Shown piece after piece: positions 1,125 through 40,826 of a DNA stretch of 44,882 nucleotides. Origin of the DNA: Deltaproteobacteria bacterium. Its GTDB lineage: Bacteria; Bdellovibrionota_F; JAHFAK01. The position numbers and the translations under genes are program-made. Position 1 is the stretch's first letter, and each line of letters begins with the position of its first letter. The DNA lies in assembly GCA_023250585.1 (NCBI GenBank), contig JAHFAK010000004.1:1-44882 (forward strand), written 5' to 3'. The notes beneath the pieces are model-generated. The model was given only the letters and a program-made list of their open reading frames with translations, was not told where the DNA came from and searched no databases.

Positions 1125-2861
1125 CTATGCTCTTCCAAACATTCGCTCGAATTGTCCTAATGTATATTTGATATAGATAGGCCGGCCGTGTGGACATGTT
1201 TGATTATGTCGTGCGTGATCGAGGTCAGCCAGAAGAAGGCGTATCTGTAATTCATTGAGATTTTTATTCGCCCGCAATGAATGATGGCATGAGAGAGTTT
1301 TTAAAATATTCTTTTTGATTTCTTCTGCATTTGTTACAATATCATTTTCTTCAAGTTCTTCATACAGATCTCGGAATAATTTTTCTACATGTGCTTCTAA
1401 AAATAAATTTGGAATAGCAGCAAAGATAAGCTGCTCGTCTTGTATGGCGAGATTGAATCCAATGGTTTGCAGCTCTTCGATAAGACAAGAAATAATTTTT
1501 TTATTGAGATTCTCTATTGGAATAGCAACAGGGAAAAGCAGCTTTTGTATTTTTTTGTCCTGGTTTTTTTCCAGTGTACATAATCGTTCATACGTAATTC
1601 TTTCAGCTGCTGCATGTTGATCCATTAGAATGAGATTATTATCTTTTTCGAGTATGATATACGTGCTATTGTATTGCCCTATAATAGTGCTGTCTGCAAA
1701 GGAAGAAGCCTTTTCTATTGATTCATCAATGACCGGGACATTTTTCTTTTCTTCAATAAAATTCATGTGCATTATTGCTTCTTGAGGTGATTTTTGCGGA
1801 ATAGTCTTGGCATAAAAAGATTGAGATGAAGATTGAAAGAAATTTTGAGCAGCAGTTTGGGTGGGCTTACTATAATAATTTTTGTTAATCAGAGCATGTT
1901 TAATACTTTTATAAATCAGCTGGTATATCTCGTTTTGATTGGAAAATTTTACTTCTTCTTTTCGTGGATGAACATTCACATCAATCCGATGAGGAGGAAT
2001 CGTAATATAAAGAACAGCAATAGGGTATTTTCCATGAGGAATAATATCTTGATAGGCATGCGTAATTGCATGATTGAGAGAAGAATTCCGAATAGTGCGA
2101 TTGTTGACATACGTATATATGCTTTGGCTATTTGATTTCGTAGAATGTGGATGAGAAACATAGCCAAAAAGTTCTATATCAAAGCTATTATGGTGAAATT
2201 CAATAAGATCGTTCTCATTCATGCCAAATATTCGAAGGATTCTTTCTTTGCTTTTTGCTGTACGTGGATAGTGAATATGTTTCGAATCAGCATGGAGTGT
2301 AAATGAAATATTTTCAAACCCGCACACACAATAATTCCATTTAGTAATACAATCTTTTCGTTCTGTCTCTTCACCTCGCAGAAATTTTTTTCGCACCGGT
2401 GTATTAAAGAATAAATCTTCTACAGTGATAGATGTTCCATCTTTACATCCAATCGGTTCACTATGAATAATTTCTCCACCTCGCAAGACAATACGTGTGC
2501 CTAAATCACTATTTTTTTGTTTTGTTTCAATTTTCATTTTTGATACAGCTGCAATAGACGGAAGCGCTTCACCTCTAAATCCCAGTGTTGAAATTGTATA
2601 GAGGTCATGTATATCTTTAATTTTACTTGTGGTGTAACGTTTCAAAGCGAGTAAAACTTCTTCACTACTCATGCCGATGCCGTTATCTTCAATTGTTATT
2701 GATTCAATGCCTGAACTGGTTATTGCAACCGTAATTTCTGAAGCTTCTGCGTCTATGGAATTTTCTACAAGTTCTTTAAGAATAGATGAGGGACGTTCAA
2801 CAACTTCGCCTGCTGAAATTTTATTAATGAGATCTTCGGGGAGAATGTTGATCTTACTCAT
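1125..2861 (-). CDS. mutL: DNA mismatch repair protein MutL
   Basis: KISAGEVVERPSSILKELVENSIDA, GFRGEAL, DVNVHP and endonuclease motifs DQHAAAERITYE and CPHGRP. Confidence 0.98.
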   Translation of the reverse strand: MSKINILPEDLINKISAGEVVERPSSILKELVENSIDAEASEITVAITSSGIESITIEDNGIGMSSEEVLLALKRYTTSKIKDIHDLYTISTLGFRGEALPSIAAVSKMKIETKQKNSDLGTRIVLRGGEIIHSEPIGCKDGTSITVEDLFFNTPVRKKFLRGEETERKDCITKWNYCVCGFENISFTLHADSKHIHYPRTAKSKERILRIFGMNENDLIEFHHNSFDIELFGYVSHPHSTKSNSQSIYTYVNNRTIRNSSLNHAITHAYQDIIPHGKYPIAVLYITIPPHRIDVNVHPRKEEVKFSNQNEIYQLIYKSIKHALINKNYYSKPTQTAAQNFFQSSSQSFYAKTIPQKSPQEAIMHMNFIEEKKNVPVIDESIEKASSFADSTIIGQYNSTYIILEKDNNLILMDQHAAAERITYERLCTLEKNQDKKIQKLLFPVAIPIENLNKKIISCLIEELQTIGFNLAIQDEQLIFAAIPNLFLEAHVEKLFRDLYEELEENDIVTNAEEIKKNILKTLSCHHSLRANKNLNELQIRLLLADLDHARHNQTCPHGRPIYIKYTLGQFERMFGRA

Positions 2862-2931
2862 ATATAGAAGTTACTTAACTAATCTCGTATTGCGAATCAA
2901 TAAAAAAGCATTGTAACAGCTCAGTAAATGG

Positions 2932-3058
2932 GGTAGTAAGGGAGTAGGTAAGTTCTAAAGAAGTATGTATATCGACGTCGCTTCCATAATACTTTTAAGA
3001 ACAGGAAAGCGCGCTCGATATACATACTTCTTTAGAACTTACCTACTCCCTTACTACC
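2932..3058. repeat. Long hairpin element, family 1, copy 1
   Basis: 44-bp perfect inverted arms 2932-2975/3015-3058 around a 39-nt core whose reverse complement matches copy 2 at 37/39. Confidence 0.95.
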
Positions 3059-3112
3059 TGAGGGATTACAAAGCATTACAATTTTTCCTGCAAGATACTA
3101 CACAATTTATGT

Positions 3113-3661
3113 ATGATGAAAACATCTGATATTATCAATCTTCCAAATGTAATTACTTTTTTGCGAGTGCCGTTAGCATTCTTATGGTTAGCTTATTATC
3201 AAGATCATGGCATTCAATTAGGAATTATTGTTGTCATTATTCTCACCGATATTATTGATGGCTATTTAGCCCGAAAGCTCAGACGTGTGACTGACTTCGG
3301 TAAAATCTTTGATCCTATTTGTGATAAATCAATATCGCTCTTCGCATTTTTTTGTTTCTACTTTTTAGGAAAAATTAACGGCGGTCAGTTATTTATATTC
3401 ATTGCTCGAGATGTTTTTATTTTCATGGCAGTGATTTTTTATTTATTATTTTTTAGAAAATACAAAATAAAATGGCGTGCGCGATTTTTAGGTAAGCTGA
3501 CCACAGCCGCGCAATTCCTTGCTATATTTGCCTTTACGCTATCTTATGATTATTTTCTAGAACTTTTCATTCTTGTTTTTGTTTTTTCTTTTTTATCTAT
3601 CATGGATTACTCATTATTTTTTATTTCTTCATTGAAAAAAAGAGAAGTTGTCGCAGAATAA
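3113..3661 (+). CDS. CDP-alcohol phosphatidyltransferase (PgsA-like)
   Basis: NLPNVITFLR and DIIDGYLAR...FGKIFDPICDK signature; hydrophobic. Confidence 0.92.
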   Translation: MMKTSDIINLPNVITFLRVPLAFLWLAYYQDHGIQLGIIVVIILTDIIDGYLARKLRRVTDFGKIFDPICDKSISLFAFFCFYFLGKINGGQLFIFIARDVFIFMAVIFYLLFFRKYKIKWRARFLGKLTTAAQFLAIFAFTLSYDYFLELFILVFVFSFLSIMDYSLFFISSLKKREVVAE

Positions 3662-3766
3662 AATAATTCTTTGGAAATGCTTGTATTTAGATGACATGAC
3701 GGTGTACACGAAAAATATTATTTTGTTTAAATTTACGACAAAAATAAAAATATTGTACAACTTTGT

Positions 3767-22855: not shown

Positions 22856-24805
22856 TCACCTTTTTTTTCTTTCCATGATTGTATCTATATCAGAACGACA
22901 CGTATGATTGAAATTACAAAATGTGCAGTTTTCTCTATTTTTTCCCGGTGTGGGAATAAATTCGCCTTGGATAATTTTTGTATATATATTCCGAATTCGA
23001 TCTTCTAAAGCATTTTTATTGAATGCTTCATTAAATTCAAATCTCATGCGCTTTATTCCCGTTTCATGGAAAAGGTAATGCGCGTCTCCTTGATTACAAA
23101 CCAATCCGCTCGATTCAAAAATTTGATTAACACCATACATATAGAGTGGAATTTGTAAATATTTTCCTTGAGAGAGAGCTGATTCACTCATGGACTGCTT
23201 TCCTGTTTTATAATCAATGATGCGCAAAAGCCCGTTTTTTCTGTCGACGTCAATTCTATCAATGCGTGCTTTAATAAAAATTGTTTCATTTTTGTTCAAC
23301 GGAATTTTGATGAGATTTTTATTCATTGTAGAGATGGGATATTCAAAATACGTTGGGACAAAATATTCATTCTTCATTTCGCTCTCAAGATATGATCTAA
23401 CTTTAGTTTTAATTTCAGTTTGTACATAGAAAATAATTCCAGGAAGTTTGATGAGTAACTCATGTGAGTGGTGTGCAAAGCTTGAAGAAAGCGCTTCATC
23501 TAATAATCCATCGTATTCTTCAATTTTATTGATGTTGAGAGGAAATAAGCCTTTCTCTTTTAAAAGAGAATACAATTTGTATAATACTTCATGCGTAAGC
23601 GTACCAATAAAATGAGCGGGCGGATAATACTCTTTAATATATTTTTCATGAGTATCGATACCAAGAATATAGCGTAAATAAAATCTATACGGACAATTCG
23701 AAAAATCTTCAAGCATGGTGGGGCTAAAGATGAGGTCATATTTTGTTTTTAAAATATCTTTTATATCAATATTTTTTAACAAACCTAAATACTCATTTAC
23801 TGTTTTTTCTTTATACAATTTTTCATAGAAGTTTTTTTGTATGGCATTGAGTGAATGTTGTGAAGAAATTTCGTTGTGTTCCTCAAAGAGTTTTTTTTCT
23901 GTTTCAATGATTCCATTACCTTTTTGTATACCGTGAAAAGGTGTCAATCCTTTGCCCGCTATATCAAACCGCGAGAATGTTATAATTTTAATTAATTCAT
24001 CGTGAGTAATAAGAGACAATAAATCTTCGGTAATTTTTGCATGAACACCTTCTTCATTGAGGCCTGGAATAAAAATTATTTTAAATTGAGAAGCATTCAC
24101 TGAATTAAAATTAACAAGTGAAACTCCTGCTTTTTGTTCTTGGTTTATAGGCAGAGTTTTTAAGCTCTCTTCAAACGTAGCAAAGAATTCGTCTCGTGTT
24201 CCGATGGTTTCAAGCGATATCATGGTTTTTAATTGATTTGTTAGGAGCTCACGAGGAGTCATATCTTTGTCATCGTAATGTGATAGAAAAAGAGAAAGAA
24301 AATTGTGATACGTATCTTTGTCTTTAAAGAGGTTTAATATATCGATATATTTCTTTGTATATTCAATCATTATACTCATTTCATGATGGCTATATATATT
24401 CGCATTGCTAATCTGCGTAAGGCCATGCATAAAATCAGCAAGTGTCGTAGCTTTAATTTGTTCGTAGATAGAAAAAATATAGTCTTTGCGAATGGGGTGA
24501 TTTTTAGAAATAATAAACTGCAGTAAATAAAATGGATCTTTATCTCGTACGAACTGAAGAAAAGTGAATAATTTTTTACCTTCTTTAGTATCTATAAAAA
24601 ATCTACCAAAGCTATTAAAATAAGAAATTGTTGTATAATCTAATGTATCACGAATAATAGTATATAAAAGATCTTTTTCGGCTACGATAAGAGCCATTTT
24701 AGAAAATGGGATGAGATATTCTTCGTTGTAAGTCCTTATTTTATTTAGGATTATTTCACTTTCATGCACTGGATCGTAACATGATAAAATCAGTGTATTT
24801 TTCAT
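22856..24805 (-). CDS. PD-(D/E)xK nuclease, AddB/RexB-like C-terminal domain with 4-Cys Fe-S motif
   Basis: SPTMLEDFSNCPYRFY, GTLTHEVL, RIDRID, IIDYKTG, QIPLY, CTFCNFNHTC. Confidence 0.85.
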   Translation of the reverse strand: MKNTLILSCYDPVHESEIILNKIRTYNEEYLIPFSKMALIVAEKDLLYTIIRDTLDYTTISYFNSFGRFFIDTKEGKKLFTFLQFVRDKDPFYLLQFIISKNHPIRKDYIFSIYEQIKATTLADFMHGLTQISNANIYSHHEMSIMIEYTKKYIDILNLFKDKDTYHNFLSLFLSHYDDKDMTPRELLTNQLKTMISLETIGTRDEFFATFEESLKTLPINQEQKAGVSLVNFNSVNASQFKIIFIPGLNEEGVHAKITEDLLSLITHDELIKIITFSRFDIAGKGLTPFHGIQKGNGIIETEKKLFEEHNEISSQHSLNAIQKNFYEKLYKEKTVNEYLGLLKNIDIKDILKTKYDLIFSPTMLEDFSNCPYRFYLRYILGIDTHEKYIKEYYPPAHFIGTLTHEVLYKLYSLLKEKGLFPLNINKIEEYDGLLDEALSSSFAHHSHELLIKLPGIIFYVQTEIKTKVRSYLESEMKNEYFVPTYFEYPISTMNKNLIKIPLNKNETIFIKARIDRIDVDRKNGLLRIIDYKTGKQSMSESALSQGKYLQIPLYMYGVNQIFESSGLVCNQGDAHYLFHETGIKRMRFEFNEAFNKNALEDRIRNIYTKIIQGEFIPTPGKNRENCTFCNFNHTCRSDIDTIMERKKR

Positions 24806-24827
24806 TTTTTTATGATATACTTTAAAG

Positions 24828-24958
24828 TGAAGCAGGAGTGGGCGATATATGTTCTTTTTTAATTGTATATCGATCGCGCTTTCCTGTTCTTAAAATTATT
24901 ATGGAAGCGACGTCGATATACAATTAAAAAAGAACATATATCGCCCACTCCTGCTTCA
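24828..24958. repeat. Long hairpin element, family 1, copy 2
   Basis: 46-bp perfect inverted arms 24828-24873/24913-24958 around a 39-nt core. Confidence 0.95.
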
Positions 24959-24966
24959 AGAGCACT

Positions 24967-26604
24967 ATGAATAAAGTCACGGTAAAGATCAACGGGAAAG
25001 TCGAGAGCATCCCAAAATATACAACGATTTTAGAACTTCTTGAAGAGCAAGGAATTAAGTATTTTCCTCATTGTTATGCTGCTCTTGTTAACAACGAGCT
25101 TGTCAGTTTAAGTTATGTATTACATGCCGATGTAGAAATTAAACTTTTAGACTACACTCATACGCTTGGCGTGTCAGTATATAAACGAAGCGTTTCATTT
25201 TTATTGGCACGAGCACTCTTTGAAATGCAGCGAAATACACGTCTTGCCATTAATCATTCCATGGGAAATGCTTGTTATTATGATCTTTTCACTGATGCCC
25301 CAGTTACTGATGAGTTGTTATCAAACATTGAAAACAAAATGAATGAGATTGCGCGGCGTAATGAGCCTATTAAACGGAAAACTTTTACCGTTGAAAAAGC
25401 TAAGGCATTTTTTACTCAACGCGCGTATACTGATAAAGTAAGGCTTTTAGAGCATATGAATAAAGATGACAAAGTCGGAATTTATTCGTGTGGAAAATTT
25501 TATGATTTAGATTATGGGCCGCTTGTCGCTTCAACCGGCTTTATTACTCACTTCGAACTCAAAACCTATGGACAGGGATTTTTGCTCCTCTTTCCAAATG
25601 AGCAGCATTTCCCTCAAATTGCAGAGCTTCAAGATATGCCTAAAGTTTTTCATGTTTTTCAAGAAAGTAAACGTTGGGGAAAAATTTTACAGGTTAATAA
25701 TGTAGGAAAGCTCAATGAGTTTATTGTTAAAGATGATTATCGAGAATTGATTTATATCTCAGAAGCACTTCATGAAAAAAAGATTGCAGAAATCGCTGAT
25801 AATATTGCTGAGCATAAGAATACGAAACTTGTACTGATTGCGGGGCCTTCGAGCTCAGGAAAAACAACATTCTCACAATGGCTTCGTATCCACTTGCGTG
25901 TTAATGGGCTCCGGCCCGTTGTTTTATCGCTCGATAATTATTACATCGATCGTGATAAGAGTCCTCGAAATCCTGATGGATCCTACAATTTTGAAGCAAT
26001 TGAATGTTTGGATTTAGAGTTCTTTAATGCCAATGTTATTGATCTCTTAAAAGGAAAAGAGGTTGAGCTTCCTAAATATAGTTTTAAAGAGGGAAGGCGA
26101 AAATCAAATGGAACCAAACTACGCATTTTTGAAGATCAATTGCTCATCGTTGAAGGCATTCACGGTTTGAATGAAAAACTAACATTTGCGGTTCCGGCTG
26201 AAGCAAAATATAAAATCTTTATTAGTGCGCTTACGCAGATTACAATTGACGATCACAACCGTATTTCAACAACTGATTCGCGACTTATTCGCCGAATTGT
26301 TCGTGATCATCAATTTAGAGCATACAGTGCGCAAAATACCATTAAAGCGTGGCCAAGTGTGCGTCGTGGGGAAGAGCTTTATATTTTTCCTTTCCAAGAA
26401 GAAGCTGATATTATGTTTAATTCAGCACTTTTGTATGAACTTGCAGTTTTAAAGCCGTATGTTCTTCCTTTGCTTGCAGAAATTAAGCAAGAAAGCGATG
26501 AGTATAGTCACGCTAAACGTCTTATGGATTTTTTGAAACTCTTCAAAGACATTCCTTCCGATGAAGTTCCCAATACATCGTTACTCAAAGAATTTATTGG
26601 GTAA
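24967..26604 (+). CDS. Nucleoside (uridine) kinase fused to ThrRS-like N-terminal domains
   Basis: TGS-like start; IAGPSSSGKTT, SLDNYY, VEGIHGLN, RRIVRD, FNSALLYEL. Confidence 0.88.
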   Translation: MNKVTVKINGKVESIPKYTTILELLEEQGIKYFPHCYAALVNNELVSLSYVLHADVEIKLLDYTHTLGVSVYKRSVSFLLARALFEMQRNTRLAINHSMGNACYYDLFTDAPVTDELLSNIENKMNEIARRNEPIKRKTFTVEKAKAFFTQRAYTDKVRLLEHMNKDDKVGIYSCGKFYDLDYGPLVASTGFITHFELKTYGQGFLLLFPNEQHFPQIAELQDMPKVFHVFQESKRWGKILQVNNVGKLNEFIVKDDYRELIYISEALHEKKIAEIADNIAEHKNTKLVLIAGPSSSGKTTFSQWLRIHLRVNGLRPVVLSLDNYYIDRDKSPRNPDGSYNFEAIECLDLEFFNANVIDLLKGKEVELPKYSFKEGRRKSNGTKLRIFEDQLLIVEGIHGLNEKLTFAVPAEAKYKIFISALTQITIDDHNRISTTDSRLIRRIVRDHQFRAYSAQNTIKAWPSVRRGEELYIFPFQEEADIMFNSALLYELAVLKPYVLPLLAEIKQESDEYSHAKRLMDFLKLFKDIPSDEVPNTSLLKEFIG

Positions 26605-40712: not shown

Positions 40713-40826
40713 ATGAGAGGTTATATATTCTTTTTTTGTTTTATATCGATCGCGCTTACCCCGTTCTTAGTATTTTTATGGAAGCGACGTCGATATAAAA
40801 CAAAAAAAGAATATATAACCTCTCAT
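40713..40826. repeat. Long hairpin element, family 1, copy 3
   Basis: 37-bp perfect inverted arms 40713-40749/40790-40826 around a 40-nt core homologous to copies 1 and 2. Confidence 0.95.

What the first reader, a model, noticed from the sequence alone, without database searches (positions are those of the whole stretch)
2932..3058. Dispersed hairpin family with a conserved asymmetric core and copy-specific perfect arms (copy 1; family overview)
Seen in the sequence: three elements within 45 kb (2932-3058, 24828-24958, 40713-40826) share the core TATATCGA-kCGCGCTT..GTTCTTA..TTATGGAAGCGACG-TCGATATA, with copy 1 in reverse orientation. The 39-40 nt centre is nearly invariant (37/39 between copies 1 and 2). 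The 37-46 bp arms differ strongly between copies, yet each is a flawless Watson-Crick inverted repeat with no G-T pairs. The core extends the stem with fixed unpaired bases (TCGA-t-CG-CGC-t-TTCC / GGAA-GCG-a-CG-TCGA). All three copies lie between divergently transcribed genes. Established knowledge: defined extrahelical bases in ssDNA hairpins are how integron attC sites (IntI) and REP/IS200-IS605 ends (HUH TnpA/RAYT) are recognised. Inference: this is a non-autonomous DNA-hairpin element whose core is a protein recognition site and whose arms are actively re-homogenised (one arm copied from the other). It may be an undescribed mobile or regulatory system. No cognate enzyme is in the window.
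Basis: partly seen in the sequence, partly recalled or inferred. Interest (0 to 1): 0.88.

Follow-up and report, generated by a model that had tools for sequence, protein, structure and literature searches.

The report
Palindromic mobile repeat with conserved core
The three hairpins belong to a family of about 80 small non-coding mobile repeats in an uncultured groundwater bacterium whose long arms stay perfectly paired while drifting apart between copies, a neat natural case of self-correcting palindromes rather than a new kind of system.

Summary
The window holds three long hairpins that share a 39-40 nt asymmetric core. The 2.24 Mb source genome, a groundwater metagenome bin, holds about 78 copies.

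About half are intact 156-161 bp miniature transposons (MITEs) with terminal inverted repeats and 8-bp target duplications. Window copy 1 is one of these (2913-3069, duplication AAAGCATT). The rest, including copies 2 and 3, are bare hairpins without recognisable termini, often wedged between a stop codon and the next ribosome-binding site.

Seven of seven syntenic sites tested are empty in the only congener. One site is occupied there, with the core inverted.

Arms differ strongly between copies: type B outer arms are 37-39% identical, against about 30% for flanks. Within a copy, only 33 of 2804 arm pairs mismatch. Four symmetrised cores, chimeric copies and cores lying in both orientations point to arm-to-arm copying (template switching or gene conversion) with spacer inversion, both described processes.

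No link to a HUH enzyme, an integron or an Rfam family was found. Why the core stays conserved is unresolved.

Verdict: a new variant of a known kind, close to Correia, REPIN and bcr1 elements. Interest is moderate.

The parts
2913..3069 (-). Copy 1: complete 157-bp MITE (type A), with its core on the minus strand. Long terminal repeat end at 2913-2931, short end at 3059-3069.
   Evidence: Sequence read. Terminal motif GTAACAGCTCAGTAA found at 2913. Same architecture as the nine copies of 156-161 bp.
2905..2912 (.). Left copy of the 8-bp target-site duplication AAAGCATT of copy 1.
   Evidence: Read directly. The identical octamer lies at 3070-3077.
3070..3077 (.). Right copy of the 8-bp target-site duplication AAAGCATT of copy 1.
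   Evidence: Read directly. In the congener G001 the intergenic gap here is 38 nt, against 204 nt in the window (from coordinates). That fits 157 + 8 inserted bases.
2932..2975 (.). Copy 1, arm (44 nt). Perfect complement of 3015-3058.
2976..3014 (-). Copy 1, 39-nt asymmetric core, read on the minus strand. It consists of a bulged CG-rich inner stem and an 18-nt loop.
3015..3058 (.). Copy 1, second arm (44 nt).
24828..24873 (.). Copy 2 (type B, no recognisable termini), arm (46 nt). Perfect complement of 24913-24958.
   Evidence: Contigs of public groundwater runs join this arm both to its unique left flank and to the left half of the core.
24874..24912 (+). Copy 2, 39-nt core.
24913..24958 (.). 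Copy 2, second arm (46 nt).
40713..40749 (.). Copy 3 (type B), arm (37 nt). Perfect complement of 40790-40826.
40750..40789 (+). Copy 3, 40-nt core of the TTACCCCG loop variant.
40790..40826 (.). Copy 3, second arm (37 nt).

Best explanation
These are copies of a non-autonomous, almost fully palindromic MITE family, the commonest repeat of this genome.

**Shown**
- Intact copies (type A) are 156-161 bp long. They have terminal inverted repeats starting GTAAY..CTCAGTTA and 8-bp target duplications.
- The bare copies (type B) are insertions of about 137-159 nt whose ends no longer resemble the termini.

**Inferred**
- Intact copies were moved in trans by a DDE-type transposase that the assembly does not hold.
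- After insertion the termini and arms drift. A change in one arm is copied onto the other, by polymerase template switching within the palindrome or by gene conversion between the arms. Each copy therefore keeps a perfect stem of 37-47 bp while copies diverge from each other.
- The same process, or recombination between the arms, inverts the asymmetric 39-nt core (flip-flop) and occasionally erases its bulges.

**Unexplained**
- The core and the inner 20 nt of the arms evolve far more slowly than the rest. I think the likeliest cause is a constraint on the core as a binding site, either for a host factor needed for transposition or for a host protein. This may be reinforced by exchange between copies.
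- When co-transcribed inside operons, the stems would be double-stranded RNA substrates. That is by analogy only.
For: **Family size**
- 74 hits within 3 mismatches in the own genome, against 0 for the reversed control. 78 copies were analysed.

**Mobility**
- The terminal motif occurs 117 times in G000, with control 0.
- All 9 copies with both termini recognised are flanked by direct repeats. Five match 8/8, one 7/8 and one 6/8. Two match only 3/8 and 1/8 in the fixed register, but by eye are 7-nt repeats displaced by one base.
- A second repeat family shares the termini but has another interior, also with 8-bp duplications.
- 7 of 7 syntenic sites are empty in congener G001: 5 type B and 2 type A. 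Five were read at sequence level and two were inferred from coordinates.

**Arm copying**
- 33 mismatches in 2804 arm pairs. 50 of the 69 copies with ungapped stems of at least 33 bp are perfect.
- Own arms show 0.33 mismatches per 33 pairs, against 14.7 for arms of different copies.
- Pairwise identity in type B falls outward: core 0.90, inner arm 0.71, outer arm 0.37-0.39, flanks 0.29-0.30.
- 4 of 78 cores were made symmetric by a three-base replacement, three in one direction and one in the other.
- Some copies are short-short or long-long at their termini.

**Inversion**
- Among 34 type A copies with both ends typed, the core lies 20:14 relative to the asymmetric ends.
- On a tree of ends plus arms this needs 12 changes, no fewer than shuffled labels (mean 11.2).
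- The one orthologous copy in G001 has the core inverted.

**Exchange between copies**
- There are chimeric copies whose two arms belong to different subfamilies.
- 26 of the 33 mismatches lie within 13 nt of the core (my hand count).

**Published mechanism**
- Template switching between inverted repeats gives both arm homogenisation and spacer inversion (PMC8604942, abstract and passages read; PMC8794818, abstract start seen in a listing).

**Context**
- sbcD was not found above its cut-off in a genome that is 96.7% complete. MutL is encoded beside copy 1.
Against: - No transposase that could move the element was found. There was no IS66, IS256 or ISL3 match and no multi-copy ORF family. Other DDE families were not searched.
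- Type B copies have no demonstrable termini or target duplications. Their descent from type A-like elements rests on insert size and residual arm similarity.
- Perfect pairing could equally be kept by selection rather than by a copying process. The data do not separate the two.
- Core orientation and arm perfection are read from a short-read assembly. Only k=31 contigs of the runs could be laid, and they break inside the arms. Flips cannot make new 31-mers when arms exceed 31 nt. A random-looking orientation is also what an assembler's arbitrary choice would give if its word length were shorter than the arms. Against collapse, the assembly does show 33 arm mismatches.
- The tree has no strongly supported branch, so a single flip is not excluded statistically.
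- The G001 contig and the metagenome contig that show the occupied site may be one data set.
Confidence: 0.68

Rival explanations
1. The hairpins are kept by selection at the RNA level. Once co-transcribed within operons, the 40-bp stems would serve as RNase III processing sites or exonuclease barriers that set the relative stability of neighbouring cistrons. Pairing would then be preserved by ordinary compensatory substitution.
For: - 36 of 68 classifiable copies lie between co-directional genes.
- Type B copies often fill the whole gap: 7-24 nt to the upstream stop and 2-26 nt to the next start in most cases.
- In five cases the insertion sits exactly between the stop codon and the ribosome-binding site or start, so these copies must be transcribed through.
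- Correia elements bind RNase III and are cleaved by it (PMC2649163, abstract and passages). bcr1 keeps its RNA structure by compensatory changes (PMC3184786, passage).
Against: - The asymmetric core shows no orientation preference relative to transcription: 19 same, 17 opposite, p = 0.87.
- Wobble pairs are not clearly favoured: 13 G-T against 7 A-C mismatches.
- Stems are perfect Watson-Crick, far beyond what RNA function needs.
- 7 of 7 tested sites are empty in the congener, so no locus needs the element.
- Three-base symmetrisation of the core looks like a single templated event, not stepwise compensation.
Confidence: 0.14
2. One reading: a single-strand DNA hairpin element whose bulged core is recognised by a structure-specific enzyme (a HUH/RAYT transposase, or an integron-type or other recombinase). 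That enzyme would move the element and rebuild its arms.
For: - The bulges are conserved in 74 of 78 copies, although the arms around them are homogenised.
- The inner stem shows a compensatory pair change in two copies (C111, C158). One variant core has a co-varying inner stem (C44:6416).
- The genome is rich in RAYT-like genes and REPIN-like palindromes.
- A small sister family has the same design with another core (6 copies: 5 found, one more).
Against: - Intact copies have terminal inverted repeats and 8-bp target duplications, which HUH and integron systems do not make.
- None of the four Y1 genes is adjacent to a copy; the nearest is 4.2 kb away. The C47 and C32 genes are flanked by other palindromes, and the IS200-like gene by other hairpins.
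- The conserved part is at the tip of the stem, not at its base as in attC.
- The three tyrosine recombinase matches look like ordinary Xer-type genes (not examined further).
Confidence: 0.07
3. The cores are domesticated host sites, for example for a nucleoid-associated, methylation-related or regulatory protein that binds the two CG-rich 8-bp palindromes (AGCGCGCT and CGACGTCG). The mobile element merely spreads them.
For: - The core is about 90% identical between copies whose outer arms are near random.
- It is CG-rich in a 36% GC genome.
- Orientation does not matter, as expected for a duplex site.
- One copy is retained at an orthologous site where the flanking gene is only 74% identical.
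Against: - 7 of 7 other sites are empty in the congener.
- No candidate protein is known, and there is no association with particular gene classes.
- Exchange between copies could keep the core uniform without any function (chimeric copies).
Confidence: 0.09
4. Assembly artefact: fold-back chimeras, or collapse of the arms during assembly.
For: - The genome is a short-read bin with 164 contigs, 51 runs of 100 N and one copy interrupted by N.
- Several copies lie at contig ends.
Against: - About 78 copies lie in different unique contexts with the same core.
- Contigs built separately from four public runs of one study tile flank, arm and core on both sides.
- An independently assembled congener and a metagenome contig carry the core and an arm.
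- Arm mismatches are represented where they exist.
- Intact target duplications fit real insertions.
Confidence: 0.02

Closest known systems
Correia repeat enclosed elements (CREE/NEMIS) of Neisseria
   Same: - About 150-157 bp long, non-coding, in a hundred or more copies.
- Terminal inverted repeats around a directional conserved core that holds a host-factor (IHF) site.
- Frequent positions 5' of genes and inside transcripts, where the stem is an RNase III substrate.
- Presence or absence varies between relatives (PMC2649163, abstract and passages).
   Different: - The duplication here is 8 bp. From memory, not from a call, Correia elements use a TA target.
- Here the whole element is one long stem whose arms differ between copies yet pair perfectly.
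- The core is a bulged CG-rich hairpin tip. I saw no IHF consensus by eye.
- There is no sequence similarity.
REPINs (REP doublets forming hairpins) with RAYT transposases
   Same: - Dispersed intergenic hairpins of about 100 nt.
- Compensatory changes on the two sides of the stem are common (PMC3116915, passage).
- Vertical persistence.
- This genome also carries REPIN-like families next to RAYT-like genes.
   Different: - In REPINs the arms (the REP sequences) are the conserved part and the spacer is variable. Here it is the reverse.
- REPINs make no target duplication and flank their RAYT gene. Here intact copies have 8-bp duplications, and no copy flanks a Y1 gene.
bcr1 of the Bacillus cereus group and ERIC/IRU of enterobacteria
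   Same: - Repeats of about 125-155 bp with direct-repeat flanks and non-conserved genomic distribution.
- bcr1 is transcribed, and its structure is kept by compensatory changes (PMC3184786, passage).
   Different: - bcr1 has 5-bp direct repeats.
- The passages I read do not describe a conserved asymmetric loop or its inversion.
- The ERIC details are recalled, not read.
Template-switch homogenisation and spacer inversion of inverted repeats (quasipalindrome correction)
   Same: A single mechanism gives arm homogenisation, multi-base replacements, growth of the repeat and inversion of the spacer (PMC8604942; abstract starts of PMC8794818 and PMC13100816). All of these are seen here.
   Different: - The described cases mostly have arms of 7-20 bp and spacers of a few bases.
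- Here the arms are 37-47 bp around a 39-nt spacer, in about 78 copies of one mobile family. The effect is therefore visible as family-wide concerted evolution.
Integron attC sites
   Same: - Imperfect hairpins in single-stranded DNA with defined extrahelical bases.
- A variable stem between conserved parts.
   Different: - attC conserves the base of the stem (the R and L boxes, recalled) and lies in cassette arrays beside intI.
- Here the tip is conserved and copies are scattered singly.
- Intact copies have transposon termini.

Membership tests
MITE (miniature inverted-repeat transposable element) | Terminal inverted repeats | tested here: met
   - Type A ends read GTAAY..CTCAGTTA / TAACTGAG..RTTAC.
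- The motif occurs 117 times in G000, with control 0.
- Not met for type B copies, including window copies 2 and 3.
MITE (miniature inverted-repeat transposable element) | Target-site duplication of fixed length | tested here: met
   - Of the 9 copies with both termini recognised, 5 match 8/8, one 7/8 and one 6/8.
- Two are displaced by one base.
- Window copy 1 has AAAGCATT on both sides.
- No clear duplication in the five type B sites read.
MITE (miniature inverted-repeat transposable element) | Small, non-coding, many copies | tested here: met
   - 113-161 bp long, about 78 copies.
- Short reading frames through the element are not conserved in frame or length.
MITE (miniature inverted-repeat transposable element) | Insertion polymorphism (empty sites in relatives) | tested here: met
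   7 of 7 syntenic sites are empty in G001. One site is occupied.
MITE (miniature inverted-repeat transposable element) | A related autonomous element whose transposase shares the termini | tested here: not met
   - No pair of termini encloses a transposase gene.
- No IS66, IS256 or ISL3 match.
- No multi-copy ORF family.
- The genome is 96.7% complete and repeats may be unassembled. Other DDE families were not searched.
REP/REPIN-RAYT system | Repeats flank the cognate RAYT gene in inverted orientation | tested here: not met
   - The Y1 genes at C32 and C47 are flanked by other palindromes.
- The C69 gene is flanked by none.
- The C13 gene (IS200-like) is flanked by other hairpins.
REP/REPIN-RAYT system | Conserved arms (REP) with a variable spacer; no target duplication | tested here: not met
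   The reverse pattern holds here: core 0.90 identity, outer arms 0.37-0.69. Intact copies have 8-bp duplications.
IS200/IS605-derived palindrome-associated elements | Subterminal hairpins like those of a resident IS200/IS605 | tested here: not met
   The hairpins beside the only IS200-like tnpA (C13) have a different sequence.
Integron attC | Conserved boxes at the stem base, in a cassette array next to intI | tested here: not met
   - Conservation is at the stem tip.
- Copies are single and scattered.
- An integron integrase model was not searched. There are three generic tyrosine recombinase matches.
Any Rfam family | Match at the family's gathering score | tested here: not met
   - The whole window gives only a tRNA.
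- Permissive scans give only generic long-hairpin (microRNA precursor) matches below threshold.
Intrinsic (bidirectional) terminator | Short GC-rich stem, small loop, T run after the stem | tested here: not met
   - No terminator-like site falls in the elements.
- The loop is 18-19 nt.
- In type B the T run lies in the 5' arm.

The most novel reading that the evidence does not exclude
The bulged, CG-rich hairpin tip could be the recognition module of an unknown structure-specific protein that acts on the extruded or single-stranded hairpin. That protein would itself drive core flipping and resynthesis of one arm from the other, a nick-and-copy or rolling-hairpin-like step. The hairpin module would then be a self-maintaining unit that merely rides in a transposon. 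The sister family with another core and the same design would be a second specificity of the same system.
Probability: 0.1. Interest if true: 0.85.

Novelty: new variant of a known kind. Interest (0 to 1): 0.45.

Why it matters
- **A replicated natural experiment.** About 78 copies in one genome record the same process, concerted evolution of the two arms of a palindrome together with inversion of its spacer. Such events have mostly been inferred one at a time.
- **An unusual conservation pattern.** It is the inverse of the usual one for MITEs. The centre is kept while the termini decay. That singles out a 39-nt bulged hairpin tip as a candidate binding site that can be tested directly.
- **Effect on operons.** Insertions of about 140 nt of perfect stem sit exactly between the stop codon of one gene and the ribosome-binding site of the next, and in one case between overlapping stop and start codons. 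This makes the family a probe for how operon expression tolerates or uses such structures.
- **Practical point.** These hairpins break short-read assemblies of this lineage. This is an inference from the copies lying at G000 contig ends and from the G001 contig that starts inside the loop.

Tried and rejected
**Readings considered and rejected**
- **Small peptide gene.** The 5' arm looks like a ribosome-binding site plus ATG. Frames and lengths differ between copies and 9-10 of about 35 copies per class lack the ATG. Rejected.
- **Outer arms copied from local flanking DNA.** Rejected because type B outer arms keep similarity to the type A consensus, and because the insertions carry extra non-palindromic bases on both sides.
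- **Promoter or terminator.** No consensus site lies inside the elements.
- **Preference for divergent promoters.** 23 of 68 copies are divergent, against 249 of 1712 intergenic gaps. But divergent gaps are far longer (median 198 nt against 16 nt for tandem), so this is not evidence of function (using my own crude ORF-based gene calls).

**Searches that led nowhere**
- **Wider distribution.** Of 61 genomes scanned, only G000 (77 hits) and G001 (1 exact hit at a contig start) stand out. The other 12 genomes have 1-2 hits with 2 mismatches, no more than the reversed control.
- DNA search of G001-G003 with a whole copy gave only that one hit and chance matches.
- An arm motif is not enriched in G001: 8 hits against 11 for the control.
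- The viral contig scan gave 0 hits.
- The metagenome scan gave 2 stretches. One is the same sequence as G001:C178. The other is a chance match inside a coding region.
- No RNA holder was listed among the sequencing runs, so expression could not be examined. No contig spans a whole hairpin.
- The core's summed depth, about 200 times the flank, is not a copy number.
- The site of window copy 2 could not be compared in G001, which gave only a partial match.
- At copy 3, the G001 orthologue of the peptidase gene has no hairpin within 541 nt, but its neighbour gene differs.
- I spent the single genome-contig scan on a housekeeping protein. It only showed that the nearest named records are uncultured Clostridia or Bacillota bins at 52% identity or less. 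The termini could therefore not be sought in that collection.
- A formal covariance model and the count of structure pairs were not run. The pair counts are from my scripts.
- Supplements of the papers were not opened. Those of PMC2649163 list the individual Correia elements and may bear on the comparison.
Full report
**1. What is in the window**

They are the three longest inverted repeats of the window. Their shared 21-mer occurs three times, against 0.01 expected.

Each consists of two arms of 44, 46 and 37 nt that pair without a single mismatch. The arms surround a 39-40 nt core.

As single-stranded DNA the core continues the stem through TCGA. Next come a one-base bulge (G or T), then CG, then five or six more pairs interrupted by a bulged T or A on the 5' side and a bulged A on the 3' side. 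The stem ends in an 18-19 nt loop (z-scores -15.5 to -19.3). Rfam has no family for them.

**2. The family**

The window is contig C156 of a 2.24 Mb, 164-contig, 35.8% GC genome. The sequencing runs that hold the window come from groundwater metagenomes.

The core motif occurs 74 times within three mismatches, and the reversed control never. With a looser rule I collected 79 candidates. One had no left core and was dropped, and 78 were analysed.

Two forms exist, about 40 and about 38 copies by my pattern rule. At least two or three copies are misfiled either way.

*Type A.* This form is flanked by terminal inverted repeats, GTAAY..CTCAGTTA(ATGGGGGAG) at one end and its complement at the other.
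- One end usually lacks a 9-nt stretch that the other has, so the element has a short and a long end.
- Nine copies in which a strict pattern found both termini are 156-161 bp long, and all are flanked by direct repeats. Five match 8/8, one 7/8 and one 6/8. Two score 3/8 and 1/8 in the fixed register, but by eye are 7-nt repeats shifted by one base.
- Window copy 1 is such an element. It spans 2913-3069, with AAAGCATT at 2905-2912 and again at 3070-3077.
- The same termini enclose a different interior in a second repeat family, again with 8-bp duplications.
- The terminal motif occurs 117 times in this genome, with control 0.

*Type B.* This form, to which window copies 2 and 3 belong, has no recognisable termini. 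Its inner arm carries a T run where type A has an A run. Its outer arm is different in every copy.

**3. Insertions, not fixtures**

The lineage is isolated. Among the genomes offered as relatives there is one congener (G001, 81% complete, 250 contigs), one genome of the same order and one of the same class. Orthologous genes of G001 are 70-82% identical at the DNA level.

I compared eight sites where both flanking genes lie on one G001 contig, or where a G001 contig reaches the site.
- Seven are empty in G001. Five are type B (C14:14116, C44:13054, C35:4889, C75:14438, C55:4675) and two are type A (window copy 1, C50:4129).
- At the five type B sites I read the sequences. G000 has about 137-159 extra bases there. 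These are the hairpin plus 7-19 and 8-16 non-palindromic bases on its two sides.
- The insertions lie exactly between the stop codon of one gene and the ribosome-binding site or start codon of the next. In one case the congener has overlapping stop and start codons (TAATG).
- For the two type A sites I inferred emptiness from match coordinates only. At copy 1 the gap is 38 nt in G001 against 204 nt here, which equals 157 + 8 + 39.
- The eighth site, G000:C117:39627-39743, is occupied in G001. There a contig begins inside the loop and continues through an arm into the orthologous gene (74% identity). A metagenome contig has the same sequence and may be the same data.

The terminal motif was not found in G001 (0 hits, control 2).

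I read this as a family that entered before the two species split and expanded mainly in the G000 line. Type B would be the older copies whose ends have decayed. Insert sizes close to the 157 bp of type A fit this, as does residual similarity of type B outer arms to the type A consensus (9.6 against 7.8 matches in shuffles). It is not proven.

**4. The arms**

- Over all 78 copies, 33 of 2804 arm pairs are mismatched: 13 G-T, 7 A-C and 13 transversion pairs.
- Of 69 copies with an ungapped stem of at least 33 bp, 50 are perfect: 30 of 36 type A and 20 of 33 type B.
- The other nine have length differences in the T/A runs, are chimeric, or are truncated.
- Pairing the left arm of one copy with the right arm of another gives 14.7 mismatches per 33 pairs, against 0.33 for a copy's own arms. 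Only 0.5% of cross pairs have one mismatch or fewer.
- Between type B copies the core is 90% identical, the inner 20 nt of the arm 71%, the rest of the arm 37-39% and the flanks 29-30%. For type A the figures are 92%, 82% and 62-69%.
- The 5' arm is G-rich and C-poor on both strands (G 37-41%, C 5-8%). I cannot explain this beyond descent from GGGAGTAGG.

The outer arms have therefore drifted almost to randomness while staying complementary. That needs either very efficient selection on pairing or a process that copies one arm from the other.

Three observations favour copying.
- Four cores have lost their asymmetry by a simultaneous three-base replacement. In three (C66, C87, C113) the left side became the exact complement of the right. 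In one (C58:1056) the reverse happened.
- Some type A copies have two short ends or two long ends. The 9-nt difference between the ends has been erased, which lengthens the perfect stem to 47 bp.
- The mismatch rate does not rise much with divergence: 0.6% in type A against 1.3% in type B.

Template switching of the polymerase within inverted repeats is described as doing exactly this (PMC8604942). Its abstract and text also name the second consequence, inversion of the spacer.

**5. The core flips**

Type A elements have two independent asymmetries, the short and long ends and the core.
- Among 34 copies where both could be typed, the core lies one way in 20 and the other way in 14.
- On a maximum-likelihood tree of ends plus arms, the orientation needs 12 changes. 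That is as many as shuffled labels need (mean 11.2; 407 of 500 shuffles as low). Both orientations occur within the best-supported subgroups (SH-aLRT 82-89). No branch is strongly supported, so the tree alone does not exclude one flip.
- At the one orthologous site, G000 and G001 have the core in opposite orientation.
- In co-directional gene pairs the core is 19 times in the sense of transcription and 17 times against it.

*Caveat.* Flipping a spacer between perfect arms longer than the word length creates no new words, so the k=31 contigs I could lay are blind to it. I could not see reads. If the original assembler's words were shorter than 37-47 nt, orientation would be arbitrary. The 10-N and 100-N gaps suggest a scaffolding assembler whose largest word usually exceeds that. 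That is my recollection, not a result.

**6. Exchange between copies**

- Several copies are chimeric. Their two arms belong to different subfamilies, with the break at or beside the core (C140, C55:21033, C61, C12, C14:6633).
- By my hand count, 26 of the 33 mismatches lie within 13 nt of the core. Many of them sit at positions that distinguish subfamilies.
- Core variants (TTTCCTG or TTACCCCG; loop centre AATAGTA, AAAATTA and others) are shared across types.

Recombination or conversion between copies, seeded in the only long identical stretch, may help keep the core uniform. It offers a neutral explanation for the outward gradient of divergence. I cannot separate this from purifying selection on the core.

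**7. What the core might be**

- It contains two different CG-rich 8-bp palindromes, AGCGCGCT on one side and CGACGTCG on the other. Their imperfect complementarity gives the bulges.
- Two copies change one inner pair on both sides (GCGTGC with GCAAC). One variant core (C44:6416) has a co-varying inner stem while keeping GTTCTTAA in the loop. The fold therefore matters, or is itself homogenised.
- The core is not a promoter or terminator by consensus and not a conserved peptide.
- By analogy with the IHF site in the core of Correia elements, thought to help bring the ends together (PMC2649163), a host-factor site needed for transposition is my preferred guess. It remains a guess.

**8. Enzymes**

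- The genome has four matches to the Y1 transposase family. One is an IS200-like tnpA (C13). Three are longer RAYT-like ORFs (C32, C47, C69).
- None is adjacent to a copy. C47 and C32 are flanked by their own palindromes, which form separate REPIN-like families. C13 is flanked by other hairpins and C69 by none.
- No IS66, IS256 or ISL3 transposase was found, and no multi-copy ORF family at 60% identity.
- Three tyrosine recombinase matches exist. One is about 0.6 kb from an N-interrupted copy on C44. I did not examine them further.
- sbcD is not found above its cut-off. Absence of that hairpin nuclease would fit tolerance of long palindromes, but this is inference.

**9. Verdict**

It is wrong in its proposed relatives.

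The closest known things are Correia elements, REPINs and bcr1. The mechanism for the arms and the flips is the published template-switch process.

What is unusual is the scale and clarity: about 78 copies, arms of 37-47 bp that have drifted to near randomness yet pair perfectly, a conserved bulged tip, frequent inversion, and insertion into the tightest intercistronic gaps. I rate it a new variant of a known kind, of moderate interest.

Noticed in passing
G000 contigs C75:17387-17506, C163:5898-6011, C100:13800-13909, C101:3366-3473, C6:5487-5595, C25: A small sister family (6 copies) has the same design. A conserved asymmetric centre (GCTTCCTCTTATAAAACTTCACTGAGCA) sits between perfect arms of 38-46 nt that differ in every copy and are again G-rich at the 5' end.
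   Followed up: partly
G000, e.g. C14:27182-27342, C15:415-570, C42:13216-13373, C62:5099-5254, C82:1686-1843, C93:2428-2585: A second MITE family carries the same terminal repeats and 8-bp duplications as type A. Its interior is a different palindrome (GGATCCCGTGGTCAAGCC...). One copy (C61:23134) joins a type A end to this interior.
   Followed up: partly
G000, many contigs; RAYT-like ORFs at C32:7088-7747 and C47:4479-5186: The genome holds 69 further perfect inverted repeats with arms of 20 nt or more. They fall into several families. Two of them (ACCGAAACGTGCCCGGCAACTTTCGGTC and CAAAAGGTGGGGACCGACATATGAA) also flank the two RAYT-like genes, so they look like REPIN-RAYT systems.
   Followed up: partly
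G000:C13, about 3440-3760 (downstream of the IS200-like tnpA at 3003-3437); also C61:2807 and C140: Another short element, with ends like GAGGTGTGAAAGAATC, appears to be inserted inside a terminal repeat of the MITE, splitting TAACTGAG from CTGTTAC. This would be a nested insertion.
   Followed up: no
window 24803-24830 and 24959-24969: Copy 2 fills 131 of the 161 nt between two divergent ORFs: a PD-(D/E)XK nuclease-family gene and a uridine-kinase-like gene. Only 22 and 8 nt are left outside the hairpin, and no consensus promoter was found there. Where these genes' promoters lie is unclear.
   Followed up: no
window 1125-2861 (minus strand): The gene next to copy 1 encodes MutL, so mismatch repair is present in an organism whose palindromes look mismatch-free.
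   Followed up: no
G000 whole genome: No sbcD match reaches the model's cut-off: best 30.8 bits against 77.65, in a genome that is 96.7% complete. sbcC was not searched.
   Followed up: partly
G000:C44:6416-6532: This copy has typical type B arms but a diverged core. Its inner stem has changed on both sides (GCGTGGTT with AACCACG), while the loop keeps GTTCTTAA.
   Followed up: no
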